Origin: an uncultured Candidatus Saccharibacteria bacterium
GTDB taxonomy: Bacteria > Patescibacteriota > Minisyncoccia > Phycocordibacterales > DATGWK01
Length of the DNA: 64,000 nucleotides
NCBI GenBank assembly: GCA_964428845.1
Contig: CAYRZH010000001.1
Location: 74,990-138,989 of the forward strand
Direction of reading: 5' to 3'
Translations under genes and position numbers: made by a program
Notes under the pieces: generated by a model
What the model saw: only the letters and a program-made list of their open reading frames with translations
Databases searched by the model: none
What the model was told of the DNA's origin: nothing
Part shown: positions 294-53,148 of the stretch, one piece after another
Layout: each line of letters starts with the position of its first letter
How positions within the stretch are numbered: position 1 is the first letter of the stretch

Positions 294-689
294 ATGAACA
301 AGGATTTTGATGGATGGAGTACAAAAAAGAAAAATATTGATAAATGTAACCGCCAGACTCTCTTCAACGAAAGAGAGATTTGGTGGTGTTCTTTAGGAGT
401 TAATATAGGATTTGAACAAAATGGAGTTAACGAACTCTTTGAGAGACCTGTTCTTATTTTGAAAAAATTTAACAAGGACACACTTTGGGTGTTACCGATT
501 ACTAGATCAGCCAAAATTGGTCCATATTATTACCAGATCAGATTTCTAAATTTCCCATCGTCCATTATTCTTTCTCAAATAAGGCTCATAAGTAGCAAGC
601 GCTTGCTTCGCAGAATGAAGAAAATTAATGAGAAGGAATTTTTTGAGATAGTGAAAATGGTGAAAAATTTTCTTCCCCAAGGAGACTGA
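294..689 (+). CDS. PemK/MazF-family endoribonuclease toxin-like protein (solitary, no antitoxin seen)
   Basis: 131 aa with REIWWCSLGVNIGFEQNG....RPVLIL..FN..TLWVLPIT, matching the PemK/MazF signature GEIW.V.L.P..G.EQ.G.RP.LIV...FN...T...V.P.T. It has a roughly 30-aa N-terminal extension. A paralog lies at 25015..25434. Confidence 0.6.
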   Translation: MNKDFDGWSTKKKNIDKCNRQTLFNEREIWWCSLGVNIGFEQNGVNELFERPVLILKKFNKDTLWVLPITRSAKIGPYYYQIRFLNFPSSIILSQIRLISSKRLLRRMKKINEKEFFEIVKMVKNFLPQGD

Positions 690-1444: not shown

Positions 1445-2257
1445 TCATTGCTTCCGAGCAGACGCCACACCAAGGTAGCCGACGCGGTCGCTGCCCCAGC
1501 CGTCGTTGACGACGAGCCCGCCCTGGCCGAAGCGGCCGACACAGACACGGCAGCCGAACGAGTCGAGACTGGATGTCCGAACGTAGATGTCTTCGAAGAG
1601 CCGGATACCACGAACTTCGAAGTAGGTCGTGATAAACCAGCTCATCTCGGCGGCATTCGGCACCTTCTCGAGTGCAGAGAGAAGCTTGCCCTGCTCGTTC
1701 CAGGTTTTGCTGGTCGAGTTCGAAACAACCGTCTTTTTGACCATGAGCCACCCGAAGGACGTCCTGTCCTCGCGAGCGAATTTCTGATCGGCATACCACC
1801 CACCCGTCTTCGAGTAGAAGTGGGCGGACTGGATCTCCCGAACCTCGAGCGTGGACATCGCTTTGGGCGGCGCAGGCATGATGGCGTAACCGTTGTCCTT
1901 GCACCATCTGAGCACATCTTCCGATGGCAGACTTCCGGCAAGTGCCGTGATCTGCTCATCGGTGTAAACGAGTGCTCCGCGAGCCTTGGTGACTTCCTCC
2001 GGCGTGATGAAATCCGCCCCGAGGATTGACTGCACCACACCGTAGTCGGGTGCTTTTGCCGAGAAGCGACGGATGCCTTCTGCGAGGTACGCAGCAAAGC
2101 CGCGATGCTCGTTCAGGATCTGTGCGCCTTTTTCGGTGAGTCTGGCCTTGTTGTATTGGGCGCGGAACAGTTGGACAGCCGTTTGTCCTTTGCGACTGTC
2201 TGCGGTTACCAATGCAGACGTGTTCAATGTTTTCGTTTTCATCGACATCATCTCCAT
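1445..2257 (-). CDS. DGR target (variable) protein with a C-terminal VR and an unknown N-terminal domain. The true start may be the downstream Met, giving MKTKTLN
   Basis: A 270-aa ORF about 60% GC in an otherwise AT-rich window. Its last roughly 38 codons (…RVCVGRFGQGGLVVNDGWGSDRVGYLGVASARKQ*) are the VR. The TR encodes …RVYVGNFDQNGLNVNNNWDNNRNDNLGVASARQS, so the Asn (AAC) codons have been diversified. Confidence 0.8.
   Translation of the reverse strand: MEMMSMKTKTLNTSALVTADSRKGQTAVQLFRAQYNKARLTEKGAQILNEHRGFAAYLAEGIRRFSAKAPDYGVVQSILGADFITPEEVTKARGALVYTDEQITALAGSLPSEDVLRWCKDNGYAIMPAPPKAMSTLEVREIQSAHFYSKTGGWYADQKFAREDRTSFGWLMVKKTVVSNSTSKTWNEQGKLLSALEKVPNAAEMSWFITTYFEVRGIRLFEDIYVRTSSLDSFGCRVCVGRFGQGGLVVNDGWGSDRVGYLGVASARKQ
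1454..1569 (-). repeat. DGR variable repeat (VR), 116 bp, at the 3' end of the target gene. The 3' 23 bp are identical to TR (an IMH-like segment, ccttggtgtggcgtctgctcgg)
   Basis: Hand alignment of the reverse complement of 1454-1569 against TR 2696-2810 gives 22 differences over 115 bp, every one at a TR adenine (30 A's in TR, 22 substituted) and zero at C/G/T positions. The ends are identical (tctcgact… and …ccttggtgtggcgtctgctcgg). Confidence 0.85.
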
Positions 2258-2297: not shown

Positions 2298-2349
2298 AAT
2301 GAGACGAGTTTTCTAGGGCCAGCTTAAGCCTCAAAAAACTCGTCTCATT
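2298..2349. repeat. Perfect 15-bp inverted repeat (aatgagacgagtttt / aaaactcgtctcatt) with a 22-nt loop, between the target gene start and TR
   Basis: Left arm 2298-2312 and right arm 2335-2349 are exact reverse complements. There is no flanking T-run, so it is not a canonical terminator. Confidence 0.6.
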
Positions 2350-2695
2350 TCAATAATCCTATTTCAAAGAATCTGTTTACATTGTATCAAACTATGGCCA
2401 GTTTGTCAATCCAAAAGAACGGCTCTAATGCTATACAATATAGCTATCTTGCTAATGAAGGCTAGGCCACGGTTTAGCCTCGCGAGATGCCTCATCTTTG
2501 AGATATCGTCAGAATGCCAGAGGTTTAAGGATCTTGGTAGAGTACGATCAAAGGTAGGGATTGAACTTCTTGCTCGCTTTTAAAGGAGATCTTTTATAAA
2601 AAGTGCTCTTAAATAAAATTCAGAAGTAAAAGGATATAGATTCTCTTGGAATAGTAAACCTTGAACTTCGGTGTCATGGACAAAGGCGAGCAACA

Positions 2696-2810
2696 TCTCG
2701 ACTCGAACGGCAACCGTGTCTATGTCGGCAACTTCGACCAGAACGGGCTCAACGTCAACAACAACTGGGACAACAACCGCAACGACAACCTTGGTGTGGC
2801 GTCTGCTCGG
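2696..2810 (+). repeat. DGR template repeat (TR), 115 bp, sense on the plus strand, the same direction as the RT
   Basis: Adenine-rich in AAC codons (encoded frame SNGNRVYVGNFDQNGLNVNNNWDNNRNDNLGVASARQ). It is the cognate of VR, with mismatches only at adenines. Confidence 0.85.
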
Positions 2811-2860
2811 CAGTCATCCTCCTTACCATAAGAAATTCTCATCATCCGATGGGAATTTCT

Positions 2861-3211
2861 TTATATGTTTTTTGAAGACCTTAGCCAACCCCCAAGCATT
2901 CTTCCGATTTCATCTACTCCCTCCTCAAAAACGATGTATCTCTTAGTATCAATTGCTCTTGTGTCCTTAGCAAGACGAATGAAGACCCTTAGAAGATTGA
3001 GTTTAAGACTAACCCTCTCTAGAACTTGCACTTTCGATAAACCCTTAGTTTGACTCGCCTGAAGTAGTCCCTCTATCACATCAAGCATATAGTTTTCACA
3101 TCGAATCCATACGGTATATCGGTCTTGTTTTGGAACAGAAACTCTAAATTCACAGAAGTTTTTATAGATTGTGTAGGATTTGTTAAATATCGGGATATCA
3201 AAATCATTCAT
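2861..3211 (-). CDS. avd: Accessory variability determinant (Avd)-like four-helix-bundle protein, also known as the 23S rRNA intervening-sequence protein family
   Basis: 116 aa, MNDFDIP…DRYTVWIRCENYMLDVIEG…RYIVFEEGVDEIGRMLGGWLRSSKNI, which resembles the Avd / TIGR02436 pattern F..L.VW……L.SQ.RRAA.SI..NIAEG……Y……E..KML.GLI.SL. I checked the start by reverse-complementing 3197-3211 to atgaatgattttgat. It is transcribed divergently from the RT. Confidence 0.6.
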   Translation of the reverse strand: MNDFDIPIFNKSYTIYKNFCEFRVSVPKQDRYTVWIRCENYMLDVIEGLLQASQTKGLSKVQVLERVSLKLNLLRVFIRLAKDTRAIDTKRYIVFEEGVDEIGRMLGGWLRSSKNI

Positions 3212-3213
3212 AT

Positions 3214-4287
3214 TATGAAATTATTTAATAAAACTTTTGAACAGATAACTTCTTCAGATAATCTTTTCTCAGCATGGGAGATATTTAAGGAAGATAAGAA
3301 GAACAAACCTGATGTCGCGAACTTTGGAAAAAAGATTGAAGAGAATATTTTTGAGATGCAACGCGAACTTAGAAACAAAACTTACAAACATAGTGTTTAT
3401 AGTGGTTTTTATGTTTACGATCCAAAGAGAAGACACATCCACAAGGCCACTGTTCGCGACAGAGTCCTGCATCATGCTATTTTTAGAGTTCTTAATCCTA
3501 TATTCGAGCCTACCTTCATTGCCCATTCCTTCTCCTGCAGGGTCGATAAAGGAACTCACAAAGGAGTAGAGATTCTCTCTGGCATGCTTAGAAAGGTTAG
3601 CAAAAATCTCACGAAATCTTGTTGGGCACTTAAATGTGACGTGAAGAAATTTTTTGACACCATTGATCACCAAATTCTTATAGAAATTCTGGAAAGAAGA
3701 ATAAAGGATCCGGATTGCTTGTGGCTTCTTGAAGAAATTATTGGGAGCTATGATACTGGAGCCGAGTTTATGAGAGAGAGAGAGAGAGTTTGGCGCTTCG
3801 CGCCAACAAGAAAGGGGTGCCTATTGGGAACCTCACTTCCCAACTCTTTGCCAATGTTTACATGAATGAATTTGATCAGTTTATTAAACATACATTAAAA
3901 ATAAAATATTATGCGAGATATACTGATGATTTTGTAATTGTCTCCGATAGTCGTGAATATCTGAACGGCTTGATCACCTCTATCAATAATTTTTTCGAAA
4001 CCAATCTAAAACTCAAGCTACACCCCGGGAAAATAGACATTCGAAAATATAAGAATGGTATTGATTTTCTAGGATACGTTATCTTGCCTCATTACAAAGT
4101 AATGCGAAAACGGACACGAAAAAGAATACTACGAAAATTTAAAACAAAAGTCCATGACTACCGACAAGGAAAAATTTCAGGAGAAAGTCTAAATCAGTCT
4201 CTACAATCCTACTTAGGCTCTTTATCACATGCAAACGAACACAAATTTAGTGAGTATTTAAAAAATCAATCTTGGTTTATTGATTAA
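3214..4287 (+). pseudogene. DGR-type reverse transcriptase, whose reading frame is interrupted at a (GA)8 tract. Segment 1 runs 3214-3865 in frame 2 and segment 2 runs from about 3784 to 4287 in frame 1
   Basis: RT motifs are present: SCRVDKGTHKGVE, ALKCDVKKFFDTIDH, GVPIGNLTSQLFANVYMNEFD (the DGR-specific I/LGxxxSQ in place of the group II intron QGxxxSP), YARYTDDFVIV (YxDD) and IDFLGYVI. Combined length is about 390 aa with no maturase or endonuclease domain. There is strong similarity to Bordetella phage bRT blocks, as recalled from memory. The two ORF-track pieces (3125..3865 and 3790..4287) are in different frames. Confidence 0.8.
3772..3806 (+). repeat. (GA)8G dinucleotide microsatellite (3772-3788) immediately followed by the perfect hairpin ttggcgc-ttc-gcgccaa (3790-3806) inside the RT gene. 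This is the site of the frame break
   Basis: Read directly from the sequence. One GA unit fewer, or a 1-nt insertion, would fuse the two RT segments into one frame. Confidence 0.8.
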
Positions 4288-4288
4288 A

Positions 4289-5416
4289 TTAGGTGAGCGA
4301 CTTAGAAAGTGCCTCCACTCCCGGCAATGTCTCATTCACCAAAAAGTCGAGCATCGCCCCTCCCGCAGTAGAGAGGAAGGTAAACTTATCTTCGAGCTCG
4401 AGGGACTTGATCGAGGCAGTAGTATCTCCCCCACCGACAATCGATTCCACATTTGATTCGGCGATTATTTTTGCTAGATTTTCGGTACTTTCGCGGAAAC
4501 CGATCTCGTAGTTACCTAGAGGGCCGTTCCACAGTACAAAGCGCGAAACGTCCACGAGTTCTCTAAGTTGAGTAACCGTAGCTGGGCCGACGTCCCAGAT
4601 AGAGTCTGTCGTTTCAACTTGGTCCGGCAACTTCACGAGTCTACCAATATCATTTTGGACAACAACATCGACAGGAAGGATGACTTTGCCACTTTCGAGA
4701 AGTTCCTTTAAATGGAAATCTCCTTCAGAAACCACCGAGCGGCCGACTTCAAACCCTTTTTCTCGGAAAAAGTTATTGGCTAGAGCTCCGCCGACAAAGA
4801 TATAGTTGGCAAGCTTCAGGAACTTGTCGATTGCTGGTATTTTGGTGTCGAACTTCGCACCACCCAGGATAAAAAGAAAGGGTTTTGCTGGACTAAATGC
4901 TCGAGAGAGATTTTCGATTTCCTTTTTAAAAAGAAAGCCGGCAAATCCAGGTATTAGTTTTGGTATTCCAACGATGGAGGCATGTTTTCTGTGAGAAGCA
5001 GAGAAAGCTTCGTTGACGTAGATATCACCGTACGAAGCAAGAGTTTTTGCAAAACCCTCATCGTTATCTTTTTCACCAGGATTCCTACGTAAATTTTCGA
5101 GAAGAATAATCTCGCCGTCTCCAATATCGGTGAGGGCTTGATCGAGCTCGGAAGATGGGTATTCACTGACAAATTTCAAAGGGAAAAAATTTTGCAGATA
5201 GATAGAGATTGGCTCGAGCGAATCCCCACCCTTCCCCTCTAGGTGACTGATGATAATTGTCTTCGCTCCAGCATTTCTCAGAAACTCAATCGTCGGAAGT
5301 GACTGCACGATACGAAAATCGTCGTCGATCTTGCCATCGATAATGGGCACGTTTAGGTCGAGTCTTAGTAAGATACGTTTTCCCTTAAGATTTCCGGCTT
5401 CGTTGATAGTTTTCAT
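4289..5416 (-). CDS. pgk: Phosphoglycerate kinase
   Basis: 375 aa; KRILLRLDLNVPIIDGKIDDDFRIVQSLPTIEFL… is a typical PGK N-terminal domain, and the Gly-rich C-terminal nucleotide-binding region is present. Confidence 0.9.
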   Translation of the reverse strand: MKTINEAGNLKGKRILLRLDLNVPIIDGKIDDDFRIVQSLPTIEFLRNAGAKTIIISHLEGKGGDSLEPISIYLQNFFPLKFVSEYPSSELDQALTDIGDGEIILLENLRRNPGEKDNDEGFAKTLASYGDIYVNEAFSASHRKHASIVGIPKLIPGFAGFLFKKEIENLSRAFSPAKPFLFILGGAKFDTKIPAIDKFLKLANYIFVGGALANNFFREKGFEVGRSVVSEGDFHLKELLESGKVILPVDVVVQNDIGRLVKLPDQVETTDSIWDVGPATVTQLRELVDVSRFVLWNGPLGNYEIGFRESTENLAKIIAESNVESIVGGGDTTASIKSLELEDKFTFLSTAGGAMLDFLVNETLPGVEALSKSLT

Positions 5417-19641: not shown

Positions 19642-20859
19642 ATGAAAAAATACATCATTTCTTCTGTATTTGTTTTGGGCCTAATATTGGCCGGTTCGGG
19701 AGTAGCTTCGGCGCAAAATGTCCTGCCGATGCCATTCCCAACACAAGGAGTTTATGGGGGTGTTGGACAAGGAACATCAGTTTCTGGGGGTGTTGGACAA
19801 GGAACATCAGTTTCTGGCCCTGGTTCTTATTCGTCCACGCAGGCCGTAGAAACTAATCAACCAAACAGGGTCATTGCCGAAACAATAGAAATCGGCGCCG
19901 AAGGAGATGTGGGAATAGAGACTGTCGGCGCAGGGAAATTTAAATCAAAAACAAGCCTGGAAACCGCTCTTAAAATGCAGCTTGAAAGATGCATGAGACT
20001 TCCTACCGACCGAGAGAAAAGTGAATGCAAAATTCGTGCGACAAAAAACTTCGAGATCAGGGGAATAATCAAAGCGGTTAGAGATATTAAGGTCAAAATT
20101 GGCGAAAAAGATGATAAGAATGTAGGTGTTCGTTCAGATGATGATGACAGCGACGATGACGACAGAGATAGTAAGACAAAAAGAGACGATGACGTCTCAA
20201 GAAAAAATATCTCCCAAGACAGAGAAAAAGCAGAAAAACGCCTTGACGATTTGGTAAAGCAGAAGTTGGACCATTTTAGACGACTTCTAGACCGCTTCAA
20301 TGCATACCACATTCGACTCTCGAAGATCGGTGATCTTATCGAAACAAGAATAGAGAAATTTGATTCTGATTCAAATGACGCCAACAATTCAGAAGCTAGG
20401 AGGCATTTGGGTCTTGCCAGGACTCACCTTAAAGACGCTCGTGCTTCTATAGATGTAGCTAGAAAACTATGGCAAGAAGTAACAAACACGAGTGTGACTG
20501 ATCCTGCGACGATAGTAAGCGTAAATAGCGACACAGCCATAATCGTAAATGACTTTGATTCATGTGTGAAAGCCGGCAGCCCAGCCATGGAATCAAATCC
20601 GCCAAAGTGCCAATTCAATGGCAAAGTTTACACCGCGAATGAAACTACTATAAAGGTAGGTGTGGAGAAAAAATCTATTAAAGATATCTATGCTCCTGTG
20701 ATAGAAGCTCTCGAGAAAGCAAAGAAATCTCTCGGTGCAGCCAAGAGCGAGCTTCTCGAGGCTTTGAGAAGTATGCGCCAAGGTCCTAATAATGCCGCGG
20801 CCGAAGTAAACTCTACAACCAATGCTGAAGTGAAGGTTGTAGAACCTGCAACAAATTAA
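19642..20859 (+). CDS. Secreted acidic protein (hypothetical) with a short tandem repeat
   Basis: Signal peptide, a 30-nt tandem duplication (GGVGQGTSVS x2 at about 19757-19816) and a D-rich stretch DDDDSDDDDRDSKTKRDDD. Confidence 0.45.
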   Translation: MKKYIISSVFVLGLILAGSGVASAQNVLPMPFPTQGVYGGVGQGTSVSGGVGQGTSVSGPGSYSSTQAVETNQPNRVIAETIEIGAEGDVGIETVGAGKFKSKTSLETALKMQLERCMRLPTDREKSECKIRATKNFEIRGIIKAVRDIKVKIGEKDDKNVGVRSDDDDSDDDDRDSKTKRDDDVSRKNISQDREKAEKRLDDLVKQKLDHFRRLLDRFNAYHIRLSKIGDLIETRIEKFDSDSNDANNSEARRHLGLARTHLKDARASIDVARKLWQEVTNTSVTDPATIVSVNSDTAIIVNDFDSCVKAGSPAMESNPPKCQFNGKVYTANETTIKVGVEKKSIKDIYAPVIEALEKAKKSLGAAKSELLEALRSMRQGPNNAAAEVNSTTNAEVKVVEPATN

Positions 20860-50899: not shown

Positions 50900-53148
50900 T
50901 AATTGCTAATCAAAAAAAGGGGTGGGGTGCAAAAAAAATTATTGCAAAACTATTTTTGTTGTTGGTAATTATTTCTGGAGTCATTGTGCCAATCTGGACC
51001 AGCAATTTAGTGGTATATGCGCAAGGCTCCCCAACCAATTTTGAGATAGAGCCAATACCAACAGCGCTTGAAGTCGCTGTAAGCACTGTCGACAATACCA
51101 TATCCGCCATAGCAAATCTTCCAGACAAACTCCTCAATGCTTTTACAAACTTCGTCGGCACCCTTTTTCTAACGATAACAGCGTGGCTACTTGGTATTTC
51201 AGGACTCCTTTTCAACGAAGTCATAACCTTCACGGTCTTGAAGATGAATACTCATGTAAGTTCTATCCCGGCAATAGATATAGCTTGGAAAGGCATGCGG
51301 GACCTGGCCAACATATCTTTCATATTTATCCTCCTTTACATCGCAATAGGAACAATACTTGGACTAGGGAGGATAAATACCAAGAAGATGCTCGTGAAAG
51401 TCATAATCATAGCCCTACTTTTAAATTTCAGCTTGTTCTTCACAAAATTGCTGATAGACGCCTCAAATATAATCTCGATCGGCTTTTACAACAAAGTGGC
51501 TCTGTCATCACCAGAGCGCGCGGTCAATGGTCTAAGCGGCGCCTTCATGGATGCGATTGGCCTGACTCGTATTTTCGACGTAGCGGGAGTATCAAACCTT
51601 CTAGCCAACCTTGACCCAATGAAAATGATCATCGTCGGAATTTTCGGAGGAATTCTATTTCTGGTAACGGCTTTTATATTCATGGCCGGAGCTATTATGT
51701 TTATAATACGTTTTGTCACTCTTATTTTCCTGATGGTTTTTTCTCCGTTGGCTTTTGCCGCCATGGCTCTTCCGAGCGACAAGTATTCAAGCAAGTGGTG
51801 GAATAAACTCTGGGACAATCTAATATTTGCTCCAGTATTCATGGTGCTGATCTGGACAACCTTTACACTATTTGCTGGACCGGGCGGGATCCTCAAACGA
51901 ATATCTGGAGGAAATATACTCGATATTGCTTCGGGTAGCGCCGCCGCGGGCTTTGCGCCTGGCGCACCACCAGTGGGAGCCTTCGGCACACTCATGAGTT
52001 TCATAATCGTCATCGTAATGATGGTGGCAACACTTATCGTCTCCAAACAACTCGGTGCGGCTGGAGCAAGCGGGGCATTGAAGCTTGGAAATAAATGGAG
52101 GGGTAAGGCCCAAGGGGTACTTGGGAGGGGAACGCTACGAATGACACCTTTAAGGACTATTGATAAAAAATGGTCTGAATCCCCACTTGGTCAAACTGCG
52201 ATCGGTAGAGGTTTGAGAAATATCACGACCGGTGTGGGCATGAACGCAGAATTTGGAAGTGGTAAATCAATTTCCAAAGTAGACAAAGAACTTAAAAAAT
52301 CAAGGGAAGACTACGCAAACAAGCAGGCTGAAAAGGTTCAAAACAAACATGATAAAGAAGAAGCAGAAAATGAGTACGAGAAAAGGAATCTCTTGTCAGT
52401 AATATCAGACAGAAGTGCAACCAGCACGGCCAGACATGGTGCACACGGCAGACTGCTTGAAAAAGAAAGAGGTCGTCTCTCAAAGCTCGATACATTGCGT
52501 GCAAGTGCTGTAAAAAGAAGAGCTTTCGATGAAGTGAATGAGATTGATACAATGAAAAAGTCTGTTTTGGATAGAGTCACTAAGATGCAGGCAAAACAAG
52601 CTCTCGGCGAGGCAACCTTCGTGGCTGATTGGGATACGACACCAGATGATGATCTAAAGAAATATGTAAAAGATATTACAGTTGACATTCCGGGAACCGA
52701 TGATAAAAAACTTCGACTAAAGATGGCCCAACGTGCCCAAGCGATACGAGTAGAGGAGGGGGGAATCATTAGAAAAACAGCTAACACAATTGCCTCCAGC
52801 CGTGCCGGATCCGTTGTCGGTAGTGTCGCAGGAGGAGTTGCAGGTGGTGTCGCGGGAGGGGTTGTGGGCAGTGTCACCGCCGGTCCCCTTGGTGCTATTG
52901 CGGGCACAGTAATTGGTGCGGGATTGGGAGGAACCAAGGGGGGTCGTAAATTCACAGCCAAAACCAAAAAATATCTCTATGGCGACGCACAATCCGCTCG
53001 ACTCTCGACTATCAAAACCTTGAGGGAGAATGCAAAAAAGGGTAAGGCTGGAGGTGGGTCTCTGGACGAACAACTCCGCGCAATATTGGATCAAGCTGGC
53101 GGCCCACCGGCCCCCGCAGCCGGAGGAGGCGGAGGTGGAACACCTTAA
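50869..53148 (+). CDS. VirB6/TrbL-like polytopic membrane protein with a Gly/Ala-rich C-terminal tail
   Basis: 759 aa with at least 7 transmembrane helices over the first 400 aa, a long charged coiled-coil middle, and the C-terminal repeat GSVVGSVAGGVAGGVAGGVVGSV…GGGGGG. Confidence 0.5.
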   Translation: MRAIDHSRPMIIANQKKGWGAKKIIAKLFLLLVIISGVIVPIWTSNLVVYAQGSPTNFEIEPIPTALEVAVSTVDNTISAIANLPDKLLNAFTNFVGTLFLTITAWLLGISGLLFNEVITFTVLKMNTHVSSIPAIDIAWKGMRDLANISFIFILLYIAIGTILGLGRINTKKMLVKVIIIALLLNFSLFFTKLLIDASNIISIGFYNKVALSSPERAVNGLSGAFMDAIGLTRIFDVAGVSNLLANLDPMKMIIVGIFGGILFLVTAFIFMAGAIMFIIRFVTLIFLMVFSPLAFAAMALPSDKYSSKWWNKLWDNLIFAPVFMVLIWTTFTLFAGPGGILKRISGGNILDIASGSAAAGFAPGAPPVGAFGTLMSFIIVIVMMVATLIVSKQLGAAGASGALKLGNKWRGKAQGVLGRGTLRMTPLRTIDKKWSESPLGQTAIGRGLRNITTGVGMNAEFGSGKSISKVDKELKKSREDYANKQAEKVQNKHDKEEAENEYEKRNLLSVISDRSATSTARHGAHGRLLEKERGRLSKLDTLRASAVKRRAFDEVNEIDTMKKSVLDRVTKMQAKQALGEATFVADWDTTPDDDLKKYVKDITVDIPGTDDKKLRLKMAQRAQAIRVEEGGIIRKTANTIASSRAGSVVGSVAGGVAGGVAGGVVGSVTAGPLGAIAGTVIGAGLGGTKGGRKFTAKTKKYLYGDAQSARLSTIKTLRENAKKGKAGGGSLDEQLRAILDQAGGPPAPAAGGGGGGTP

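What the first reader, a model, noticed from the sequence alone, without database searches (positions are those of the whole stretch)
3772..3806. DGR RT reading frame broken exactly at a (GA)8 microsatellite followed by a GC hairpin
The RT is split into a frame-2 segment (ending 3865) and a frame-1 segment (from about 3784). The switch point is the 17-nt GAGAGAGAGAGAGAGAG run; losing one GA unit (or gaining 1 nt) restores a single roughly 390-aa RT. Dinucleotide SSRs are classic slipped-strand phase-variation switches. This could be an on/off switch for DGR mutagenesis, a recently inactivated RT that freezes the current VR allele, or an assembly error at a low-complexity tract. The perfect hairpin ttggcgcTTCgcgccaa sits 1 nt downstream.
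Basis: partly seen in the sequence, partly recalled or inferred. Interest (0 to 1): 0.6.

Follow-up and report, generated by a model that had tools for sequence, protein, structure and literature searches.

The report
Repeat-tract switch inside a mutagenic reverse transcriptase
The broken reverse-transcriptase gene is real. It is one example of a pattern in more than 100 species of ultra-small (CPR) bacteria: a slippery GA repeat sits in the enzyme that drives targeted hypermutation and usually leaves it out of frame, which suggests a reversible on/off switch.

Summary
A pure (GA)8G run lies at 3772-3788, and a 7-bp GC hairpin lies at 3790-3806. The RT of an otherwise intact DGR changes frame inside the run. 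Losing one GA unit gives a 356-aa RT, not about 390 aa.

This is not a one-off lesion. All carry a pure GA tract of 12-71 nt at the same RT loop. Of 118 loci, 25 are in frame and 93 are out of frame (50 and 43 in the two phases). Both RT halves are intact, and both frames are open inside the tract in 92 of 93. No other dinucleotide repeat occurs in 888 kb of flanking DNA. Two 4.86-kb contigs differ only by one GA unit. Other CPR RTs carry G8 or G10 runs that also split the gene. The tract encodes the only low-confidence loop of the modelled RT.

Best explanation: a conserved hypermutable tract makes DGR mutagenesis phase-variable, and this window holds an OFF allele. The rivals are RNA- or ribosome-level slippage, plain decay and assembly error. 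I found no paper describing this. Reads from this population were not available.

The parts
3772..3788 (+). (GA)8G simple-sequence repeat, the point where the RT reading frame changes. It reads R/E in all three frames and has no stop in any frame.
   Evidence: A homologous tract of 12-71 nt sits at the same site in 120 genome loci.
3790..3806 (+). Perfect 7-bp GC-rich hairpin, ttggcgc-TTC-gcgccaa, 1 nt after the tract.
   Evidence: DNA fold -7.8 kcal/mol, z -3.74. The 13-mer GGCGCTTCGCGCC recurs after GA tracts in relatives and is read in two different frames.
3215..3865 (+). RT N-terminal reading frame (frame 2). RT motifs up to the tract, then a 25-codon out-of-frame tail ending at TGA 3863-3865.
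   Evidence: The same 216-aa product is on record from an NCBI contig of 269,714 nt (P0241).
3754..4287 (+). RT C-terminal reading frame (frame 1), open from 18 nt upstream of the tract. It carries GVPIGNLTSQ, YTDD and the thumb, and stops at TAA 4285-4287.
   Evidence: The repaired protein matches Pfam RVT_1 at 1.4e-26. The closest solved structure is Bordetella bRT 8ub7.
2861..3211 (-). Avd accessory gene, 116 aa, intact.
   Evidence: Pfam bAvd at 6.6e-15.
2696..2810 (+). Template repeat (TR) of the DGR.
   Evidence: 115 nt aligned to the VR, with 22 mismatches, all at TR adenines (22 of 30 A).
1454..1568 (-). Variable repeat (VR) at the 3' end of the target gene (1445-2257, minus strand, 270 aa, no Pfam hit).
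2524..2699 (+). Weak match to Rfam RT-16 RNA just upstream of the TR. Possibly the structured 5' part of the DGR template RNA.
   Evidence: 33 bits against a gathering score of 50, E 0.011, and the full model length is matched.

Best explanation
The GA run is a conserved, hypermutable simple-sequence repeat placed in a permissive surface loop of the DGR reverse transcriptase, between RT motifs 3 and 4.

Slipped-strand mispairing during DNA replication adds or removes GA units. Each step of 2 nt moves the gene through three phases. One phase gives full-length RT with a variable (Arg-Glu)n loop. The other two give a truncated enzyme.

The window carries an OFF phase that returns to ON by losing one GA unit. 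When the RT is OFF, the current allele of the variable target protein is frozen. Rare ON cells resume adenine-directed mutagenesis of the target.

Shown here:
- the tract, the frame arithmetic and the intact rest of the DGR;
- conservation of the tract across CPR lineages;
- length polymorphism between otherwise identical DNA;
- coexistence of ON and OFF alleles.

Inferred, not shown:
- that switching happens within this population;
- that the switch is reversible;
- that it is selected as a switch;
- that the adjacent hairpin raises slippage.
For: 1. The tract is the only dinucleotide repeat in the window. All 123 dinucleotide repeats of at least 6 units in 888 kb (120 related loci plus the window) lie at this RT site.

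Each has a pure GA tract of 12-71 nt (median 21) before the PIGNLT motif.

3. Frames assigned by tblastn in 118 loci: 25 in frame, 50 shifted by +1 and 43 shifted by +2. Both halves match at full length. In 92 of 93 out-of-frame loci both frames are open inside the tract, so the tract is the only lesion.

4. L080 and L103 are 4,863 and 4,861 nt with 0 mismatches and differ by one GA unit. L125 and L136 are 99.1% identical over 9.9 kb and carry 16- and 20-nt tracts in different OFF phases. A group of four loci with 90-97% identical flanks carries tracts of 13, 31, 21 and 25 nt. Short tracts (11, 13, 15 nt) do not vary.

5. Codon use is purely AGA/GAG. The hairpin 13-mer is read in two different frames. 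Selection therefore acts on the DNA, not on the peptide.

6. Different repeat types converge on RT genes. A G10 run sits at the same loop (L164) and a G8 run sits after motif 5 (L165-167, three assemblies), and both split the RT. GA modules also occur between motifs 2 and 3 (L130, L135, L146).

7. Of 55 truncated N-fragments among the best 120 database hits, 46 end in an RERE tract. Five more carry a GGG stretch near the truncation: P0246, P0282, P0288, P0287 and P0304. The underlying G run was confirmed in DNA for P0288 and P0304. A tract-less RT is intact in 10 independent contigs.

8. The tract falls in an 18-aa gap of the Bordetella bRT alignment and in the only internal low-confidence stretch of the AlphaFold model (residue blocks 181-200, pLDDT 52-65, overall mean 88.6).

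9. The DGR was active in the past. 22 of 22 TR/VR mismatches are at TR adenines, and Avd is intact.

10. Tract presence clusters on the RT tree (20 inferred changes against 86 when labels are shuffled), so it persists over long times.
Against: No reads or second assembly of this organism were available, so heterogeneity within this population is untested.

In-frame alleles are only 21% of species, below the neutral one third (binomial p = 0.0045). This fits an OFF-biased switch. It equally fits relaxed selection on the DNA phase, or decay.

The cleanest one-unit pair (L080/L103) has an in-frame TAG elsewhere in the RT. It proves tract instability, not a functional ON/OFF pair.

An 11-nt tract is OFF in three metagenomes, which looks more like a locked state than a switch.

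Switching rates and reversibility cannot be read from sequence.
Confidence: 0.6

Rival explanations
1. Frame-independent expression by slippage on the RNA. RNA polymerase, or the ribosome, slips by 2 nt on the GA tract. A fraction of transcripts or translations is then in frame whatever the DNA phase. The downstream hairpin acts as the pause or stimulator. The DNA phase would be nearly neutral, and the tract would set a low RT dose.
For: The tract (17 nt here, median 21) is longer than the 9-bp RNA:DNA hybrid, so a 2-nt realignment keeps full pairing.

In E. coli about half of 2-nt transcript deletions fall in dinucleotide repeats (PMC5574713). GAGAG motifs give 2-nt transcript deletions in eukaryotes (PMC3091519).

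On a GA repeat, P- and A-site tRNAs re-pair perfectly after a shift of 2 nt either way; this follows directly from the sequence.

All three phases are common and both halves stay intact.

Hairpins start 0-5 nt after the tract in about 40% of loci. Mean z is -0.79 and Wilcoxon p is 9e-8.

42 of 120 tracts are followed at once by TAA or TAG, as at stop-stimulated shift sites.
Against: There is no canonical slippery heptamer. No single shift direction is favoured (50 against 43).

The hairpin is missing or weak in about half of the loci.

A hairpin downstream of the tract cannot act on RNA polymerase while the hybrid is on the tract; this is an inference from the geometry of the transcription complex.

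G8 and G10 runs at the same or other RT sites fit DNA-level phase variation at least as well.

No experimental precedent for efficient 2-nt recoding on GA repeats in bacteria was found in the papers searched.
Confidence: 0.2
2. Plain decay. The tract is a mutational liability in a tolerant loop. In this genome it has slipped out of frame and the RT is simply dead, which freezes the VR. There is no selected switching.
For: 79% of species carry out-of-frame alleles. An 11-nt tract is stably OFF in three metagenomes. The L080/L103 RT also has an internal TAG. L126 looks like a truncated RT remnant ending at such a module.
Against: In 92 of 93 OFF loci from different species, the roughly 1 kb of RT coding sequence outside the tract has no other frame break or stop in the matched parts. 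Avd, TR and VR are intact here.

Pure long tracts persist within RT clades. They are absent from all flanking DNA. Unselected bacterial repeats should erode.

Independent G-run repeats arose in other RTs.
Confidence: 0.12
3. Assembly or sequencing error. The true tract in this organism has 7 or 10 units and the RT is intact.
For: Dinucleotide repeats stutter in amplified libraries. Only one assembly of this organism is on record.
Against: A 17-nt tract is far shorter than a read.

The deposited record carries the same 216-aa N-fragment (P0241).

The same out-of-frame pattern appears in about 93 independent assemblies made by many groups and assemblers. Some alleles recur identically in separate assemblies: L125 and L145 for the GA tract, and L165-167 for the G8 run.
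Confidence: 0.05
4. Split enzyme. The two halves are made as separate polypeptides. The GA run would serve as a ribosome-binding site for the second half, and the halves would reassemble.
For: Here a TTG at 3790 follows the purine-rich tract in the C-frame.
Against: Only 28 of 93 OFF loci have any ATG, GTG or TTG in the C-frame between the tract and the PIGN motif, and only 8 have ATG. That is about chance level.

GAGAG pairs poorly with the anti-Shine-Dalgarno sequence; this is my own inference.

In-frame fused alleles exist in 21% of species.
Confidence: 0.03

Closest known systems
Simple-sequence-repeat contingency loci (phase-variable genes) of host-adapted bacteria. Examples are poly-G tracts in Campylobacter jejuni, CT/AG dinucleotide and homopolymer tracts in Helicobacter pylori, and repeats in Neisseria and Haemophilus (general knowledge; see PMC5084427, PMC3025981, PMC4081817 listed).
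   Same: A pure intragenic repeat whose unit number sets the reading frame. ON and OFF alleles occur among close relatives. Longer tracts are more variable. Both dinucleotide and G-run versions are found.
   Different: The switched gene is not a surface or restriction-modification gene. It is the reverse transcriptase of a targeted hypermutation system, so the switch gates a mutator. The hosts are CPR/Patescibacteria. The tract is kept at one homologous loop in RTs that share only 32-65% identity with the window's RT. A GC hairpin often follows it.
Diversity-generating retroelement of Bordetella phage BPP-1 (bRT-Avd, TR/VR; solved as 8ub7 and related entries) and the CPR 'B3' DGR architecture (Wu et al. 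2017, PMC5758913).
   Same: The RT has the DGR motif GxPIGxLTSQ. There is an Avd gene and a TR/VR pair with adenine-only differences. The gene order is that described for 90% of CPR DGRs.
   Different: bRT has an 18-residue gap where the tract-encoded loop lies. No repeat tract or frame switching has been described for bRT. None was found in viral contigs.
Recoding by slippage. Examples are transcriptional slippage on A/T runs (dnaX, IS elements), -2 ribosomal frameshifting in arteriviruses, and 'molecular misreading' at GAGAG motifs (PMC3091519). Transcript indels in repeats are documented in PMC5574713.
   Same: A repetitive tract where register can be lost with full re-pairing. A downstream RNA structure is often present. 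Two intact frames overlap at the site.
   Different: There is no canonical heptamer. All three DNA phases occur at comparable frequency. The structure is missing in many loci. No expression data exist.
Repeat-controlled mutator genes, for example a G:C run in mutL of Pseudomonas that gives reversible mutator phenotypes. This is recalled from memory and was not checked here.
   Same: The concept is the same: a hypermutable repeat turns a mutation-generating or mutation-limiting function on and off.
   Different: That case changes genome-wide mutation rate through mismatch repair. Here only one target gene's variable region would be affected.

Membership tests
Diversity-generating retroelement (DGR) | Reverse transcriptase of the DGR clade with the motif-4 signature (I/L)GxxxSQ | tested here: met
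   GVPIGNLTSQLFAN is in the C-frame. The repaired protein matches RVT_1 at 1.4e-26. The best solved match is Bordetella bRT 8ub7, E 3.4e-45. The frame is broken at the tract.
Diversity-generating retroelement (DGR) | TR/VR pair whose differences are confined to adenines of the TR, with the VR at the 3' end of a target gene | tested here: met
   115 nt aligned, 22 mismatches, all at TR adenines (22 of 30 A). The VR ends 7 nt before the stop of ORF 1445-2257.
Diversity-generating retroelement (DGR) | Accessory protein Avd next to the RT | tested here: met
   ORF 2861-3211 on the minus strand matches Pfam bAvd at 6.6e-15.
SSR contingency locus (phase-variable gene) | Perfect intragenic repeat, long enough to be unstable, whose unit changes alter the reading frame | tested here: met
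   (GA)8.5 with 100% matches. The frame arithmetic was verified. Both frames are open across the tract.
SSR contingency locus (phase-variable gene) | Tract-length polymorphism among near-identical genomes, with ON and OFF alleles and an otherwise intact gene | tested here: met
   Met in relatives. L080/L103 differ by one unit only over 4.86 kb. L125/L136 carry 16 and 20 nt. Phases are 25 ON, 50 and 43 OFF, with intact halves. Not testable for the window's own population.
SSR contingency locus (phase-variable gene) | High-frequency, reversible switching within a clonal population | not testable with these tools
   This needs reads or cultures. The organism is absent from the contig collections searched.
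Programmed -1 ribosomal frameshift site | Slippery heptamer X XXY YYZ with a stimulatory structure 5-9 nt downstream and one conserved shift direction | tested here: not met
   There is no such heptamer in GAGAGAG. The hairpin is present in only about 40% of loci. The shift needed is +1 in 50 loci, +2 in 43 and none in 25.
Transcriptional-slippage recoding site | Run that allows the RNA:DNA hybrid to realign, giving a mixed-length transcript population | tested here: inconclusive
   The tract exceeds the 9-bp hybrid, so realignment by 2 nt is possible (PMC5574713). It is not a classical A/T homopolymer, and no transcript data were available.

The most novel reading that the evidence does not exclude
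The GA tract, often with its hairpin and an immediately following TAA, is a new kind of recoding signal. RNA polymerase or ribosomes slip by two nucleotides on it and make active RT from any DNA phase. On this reading most 'broken' CPR DGR RT genes are in fact expressed, and dinucleotide-repeat frameshifting is a regular decoding mode in these bacteria.
Probability: 0.17. Interest if true: 0.85.

Novelty: new variant of a known kind. Interest (0 to 1): 0.76.

Why it matters
If the tract is a switch, CPR bacteria put targeted hypermutation under a second stochastic layer. Most cells keep a fixed variant of the diversified protein. A minority re-open diversification. This gives a concrete, testable answer to how DGR activity is restrained.

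There is also a practical consequence. Pipelines that require an intact RT reading frame will score these DGRs as dead or will split the gene. Out-of-frame alleles are 79% of tract-bearing loci. Tract-bearing genes may be 35-46% of this RT clade, as a rough estimate. DGR prevalence and activity in CPR genomes are therefore probably misjudged.

The conserved site also marks a loop of the RT that tolerates insertions of very different length.

Tried and rejected
1. I looked for the same organism elsewhere to count tract variants. Exact look-ups of the window's Avd found nothing. The metagenome scan found relatives but not this species.

2. I used Avd proteins seen on many contigs to sample populations. 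The two tried were linked to a tract-less RT (10 contigs, all intact) and a 15-nt tract (5 contigs, invariant). They served only as controls. None of the 120 Avd hits matched my long-tract loci.

3. Split-RT hypothesis: rejected, because start codons after the tract are at chance level.

4. A single-direction programmed frameshift: rejected on the 50/43/25 phase distribution.

5. An obligatory hairpin: rejected, because about half of the loci lack a convincing one. The stems I first read as UUCG tetraloops fold as 3-nt TTC loops.

6. Rfam search of 2300-4400 found nothing at the tract.

7. A technical sequence such as an adapter was considered and dismissed. The tract sits at one homologous codon position in many independent assemblies.

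8. Viral contigs: two scans gave no hits.

9. Eight literature searches and two DGR surveys read gave no description of repeats or frame switching in DGR RT genes. Paul et al. 2017 could not be read.

Full report
**The observation.** The window reads ...GAGTTTAT GAGAGAGAGAGAGAGAG T TTGGCGC TTC GCGCCAA CAAG.... The pure (GA)8G run is at 3772-3788 and the 7-bp hairpin is at 3790-3806.

The run is the only period-2 array that Tandem Repeats Finder reports in 64 kb. Its 10-mer occurs nowhere else; 0.17 matches are expected by chance. The hairpin as DNA folds at -7.8 kcal/mol, better than all 200 shuffles.

The RT N-part starts at ATG 3215 in frame 2 and runs through the tract to TGA 3863-3865. The C-part in frame 1 is open from 3754 to TAA 4285-4287. 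Deleting one GA unit fuses them into a 356-aa protein. That protein matches Pfam RVT_1 at 1.4e-26 and covers 99% of 349-357-aa homologues at about 60% identity, mostly from Parcubacteria and other CPR bacteria.

**The surrounding element is a complete DGR that has worked.**
- Avd (2861-3211, minus strand) is intact.
- The TR (2696-2810, plus strand) and the VR (1568-1454, minus strand, at the end of ORF 1445-2257) align over 115 nt. There are 22 differences, all at TR adenines.
- The order target(-), TR(+), avd(-), RT(+) recurs in relatives. It corresponds to the architecture that Wu et al. report for 90% of CPR DGRs (PMC5758913).
- A weak match to the RT-associated Rfam motif RT-16 lies just upstream of the TR.

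**The tract is a family trait, not a private lesion.** In an alignment of the 120 best full-length homologues, 18 carry an in-frame RERERE stretch at exactly this position. The others have a short loop.

The DNA of four such homologues shows pure GA runs of 27-35 nt. In two of them the identical hairpin core GGCGCTTCGCGCC is present. One of the two reads it in a different codon phase from the window (GASR rather than ALRA). Conservation is therefore at nucleotide level.

I then scanned one genome per bacterial and archaeal species with a pattern that ignores reading frame: GAGAGAGAGAG, 15-45 nt, then the codons of PIGNLT. Nearly all are Patescibacteria MAGs: Saccharibacteria, Wolfe-, Berkel-, Doudna-, Uhr-, Peregrini-, Yanofsky-bacteria and others.

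Tracts are 12-71 nt long, median 21. The same patterns found nothing in 2.9 million viral contigs.

**Most alleles are out of frame, and only at the tract.** I assigned the frames of the N and C halves by tblastn in 118 loci. 25 are in frame, 50 need a +1 shift and 43 need a +2 shift. The window belongs to the last class.

Both halves match over essentially their full length. In 92 of 93 out-of-frame loci the N frame is open into the tract and the C frame is open out of it, so a change inside the tract is sufficient to restore the gene. A GA run reads Arg/Glu and is stop-free in all three frames, which makes this possible.

In-frame alleles are fewer than one third (binomial p = 0.0045). The loci are not fully independent, so this is only suggestive.

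The protein database gives the same picture. Of 55 truncated N-fragments among the best 120 hits to the window's N-part, 46 end in an RERE tract followed by a stop or a short tail. Many sit on contigs of tens to hundreds of kb. A tract-less RT was intact in all 10 independent contigs examined.

**The tract is specific and unstable.** In 888 kb of sequence (120 loci plus the window), every one of the 123 dinucleotide repeats of at least six units lies at the RT site.
- L080 and L103, from two co-assemblies of one study, are 4,863 and 4,861 nt with no mismatch and one gap, the GA unit.
- L125 and L136 are 99.1% identical over 9.9 kb. They carry 16- and 20-nt tracts, which are two different OFF phases.
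- Four loci with 90-97% identical flanks carry 13, 31, 21 and 25 nt.
- Short tracts (11, 13 and 15 nt) did not vary across 3, 2 and 5 contigs.

This length dependence is what slipped-strand mispairing predicts.

**Other repeats do the same job.** A Kaiserbacteria MAG has a G10 run in the same loop, and its RT is split there (L164). Three assemblies of another lineage have a G8 run after the YTDD motif, and the RT is split there (L165-167).

GA-plus-hairpin modules also sit between RT motifs 2 and 3 in another DGR-type RT. They break the frame in at least L146 and L135. Different repeat types at several permissive positions of the same enzyme argue that switchability is the selected property, not a GA-specific function.

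**Why this loop.** The tract-encoded segment aligns to an 18-residue gap in the solved Bordetella bRT, directly before GIPIGSLTSQ. An AlphaFold model has mean pLDDT 88.6. Its only internal low-confidence stretch is residue blocks 181-200 (pLDDT 52-65, below 50 at 184-191), which is this segment. A hydrophilic Arg-Glu or Gly insert of variable length should be tolerated there. That last point is an inference.

**The hairpin.** Across 108 loci with at least 14 nt of sequence between the last tract base and the PIGN codons, that sequence folds better than shuffles. Mean z is -0.79, Wilcoxon p is 9e-8, and 41% have z below -1. Stems differ in sequence (GGCGC, CAGCC, CGGCC, GCGACC, AAAAATCC and others) and loops are mostly TTC or TGC. 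About half of the loci have little or no structure.

The hairpin is therefore a frequent companion, not a requirement. Its role is open. It could stall replication and so raise slippage, or it could pause ribosomes.

42 of 120 tracts are followed at once by TAA or TAG. In the ON phase this reads Ser-Lys. In one OFF phase it stops translation immediately.

**Evolution.** On a neighbour-joining tree of 256 RTs (123 with a tract, 133 without), tract presence needs about 20 changes, against 86 for shuffled labels. There are pure tract clades of up to 17 members. The tract is thus inherited over long periods, with several gains or losses. The tree is crude and the sampling is uneven.

**Interpretation.** The best-supported reading is a conserved contingency repeat that makes DGR mutagenesis phase-variable. 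The window holds an OFF allele one unit away from ON.

What is not shown is switching inside this population, its reversibility, or its selective value.

The main rival is rescue at the RNA or ribosome level. A 2-nt realignment keeps full pairing for RNA polymerase on a tract longer than the hybrid. Dinucleotide repeats are hot spots for 2-nt transcript deletions in E. coli (PMC5574713), and GAGAG motifs are hot spots in eukaryotes (PMC3091519). On a GA repeat both ribosomal tRNAs also re-pair perfectly after a shift of 2 nt either way. The roughly even use of both OFF phases excludes a single-direction programmed shift. It does not exclude direction-blind slippage.

Plain decay is unlikely, given intact halves in 92 of 93 OFF species and the persistence of pure tracts. 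It cannot be ruled out for this one genome.

Assembly error is unlikely. The tract is short, the deposited record carries the same 216-aa N-fragment (P0241), and the pattern recurs in many independent assemblies.

A split enzyme is unlikely, because start codons after the tract occur at chance level.

**Novelty.** Eight full-text searches and two large DGR surveys read turned up no mention of repeat tracts, frame switching or phase variation in DGR RT genes. One key CPR paper could not be read, so prior description cannot be excluded.

Repeat-based phase variation and DGRs are each well known. Their combination, a repeat switch gating a targeted mutator and conserved across CPR lineages, appears to be a new variant.

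Noticed in passing
window 2524-2699 (+): Sub-threshold match to Rfam RT-16 RNA (33 bits against a gathering score of 50, E 0.011, full model length), ending where the TR begins. It may be the structured leader of the DGR template RNA.
   Followed up: no
L127, L131, L134, L137, L140 (metagenome contigs, GC 0.53-0.68): The same module, a GA tract of 13-23 nt followed by TAG/TAA and the hairpin GGCGCTTCGCGCC, sits at the 3' end of a RelB-family antitoxin gene in high-GC, non-CPR bacteria (Pfam RelB at 9e-9 for L140). Tract length differs between related contigs (13 and 15 nt). It would change the antitoxin C-terminus.
   Followed up: partly
L164 3053-3062; L165 and L166 3197-3204; L167 1627-1634: G10 and G8 homopolymer runs inside CPR DGR RT genes, one in the same loop as the GA tract and one after the YTDD motif. 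The RT is split into two ORFs at each run. The G8 allele is identical in three assemblies.
   Followed up: partly
L130, L135, L146 (and L126): A GA tract plus the same hairpin at other positions of DGR-type RTs: between motifs 2 and 3 (40-47 nt, frame-breaking in L146 and L135) and near residue 50 (L126, where the RT seems to end at the module).
   Followed up: partly
L034, L050; L054, L102: Compound repeats at the RT site. In L034 and L050 a (TC)n run abuts the (GA)n run, which forms a perfect palindrome. In L054 and L102 the GA tract runs straight into a G8-9 run.
   Followed up: no
L080 / L103: This RT has an in-frame TAG in the N-terminal half (..KNFV*RGDITKFFD..) in both contigs. It is either a second lesion or a reassigned or read-through codon. 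The MAGs are labelled Gammaproteobacteria but carry a CPR-type DGR at 39% GC.
   Followed up: partly
L005-L124 record titles: Several contigs with CPR-type DGR RTs are labelled Gammaproteobacteria, Bdellovibrionales, Actinomycetota or Syntrophorhabdaceae. These are probably binning or labelling errors in automated MAG sets.
   Followed up: no
window 294-689 (+); L164 3871-4221: A PemK/MazF-type toxin gene lies close to the DGR in the window (Pfam 1.2e-10), and another lies just downstream of the RT in L164. This may be coincidence or a recurrent neighbour.
   Followed up: no
window 19749-19817 and 52819-52875: Tandem repeats with 30-nt (2.3 copies, 97% matches) and 24-nt (2.4 copies, 78%) units elsewhere in the window. 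They were not examined.
   Followed up: no
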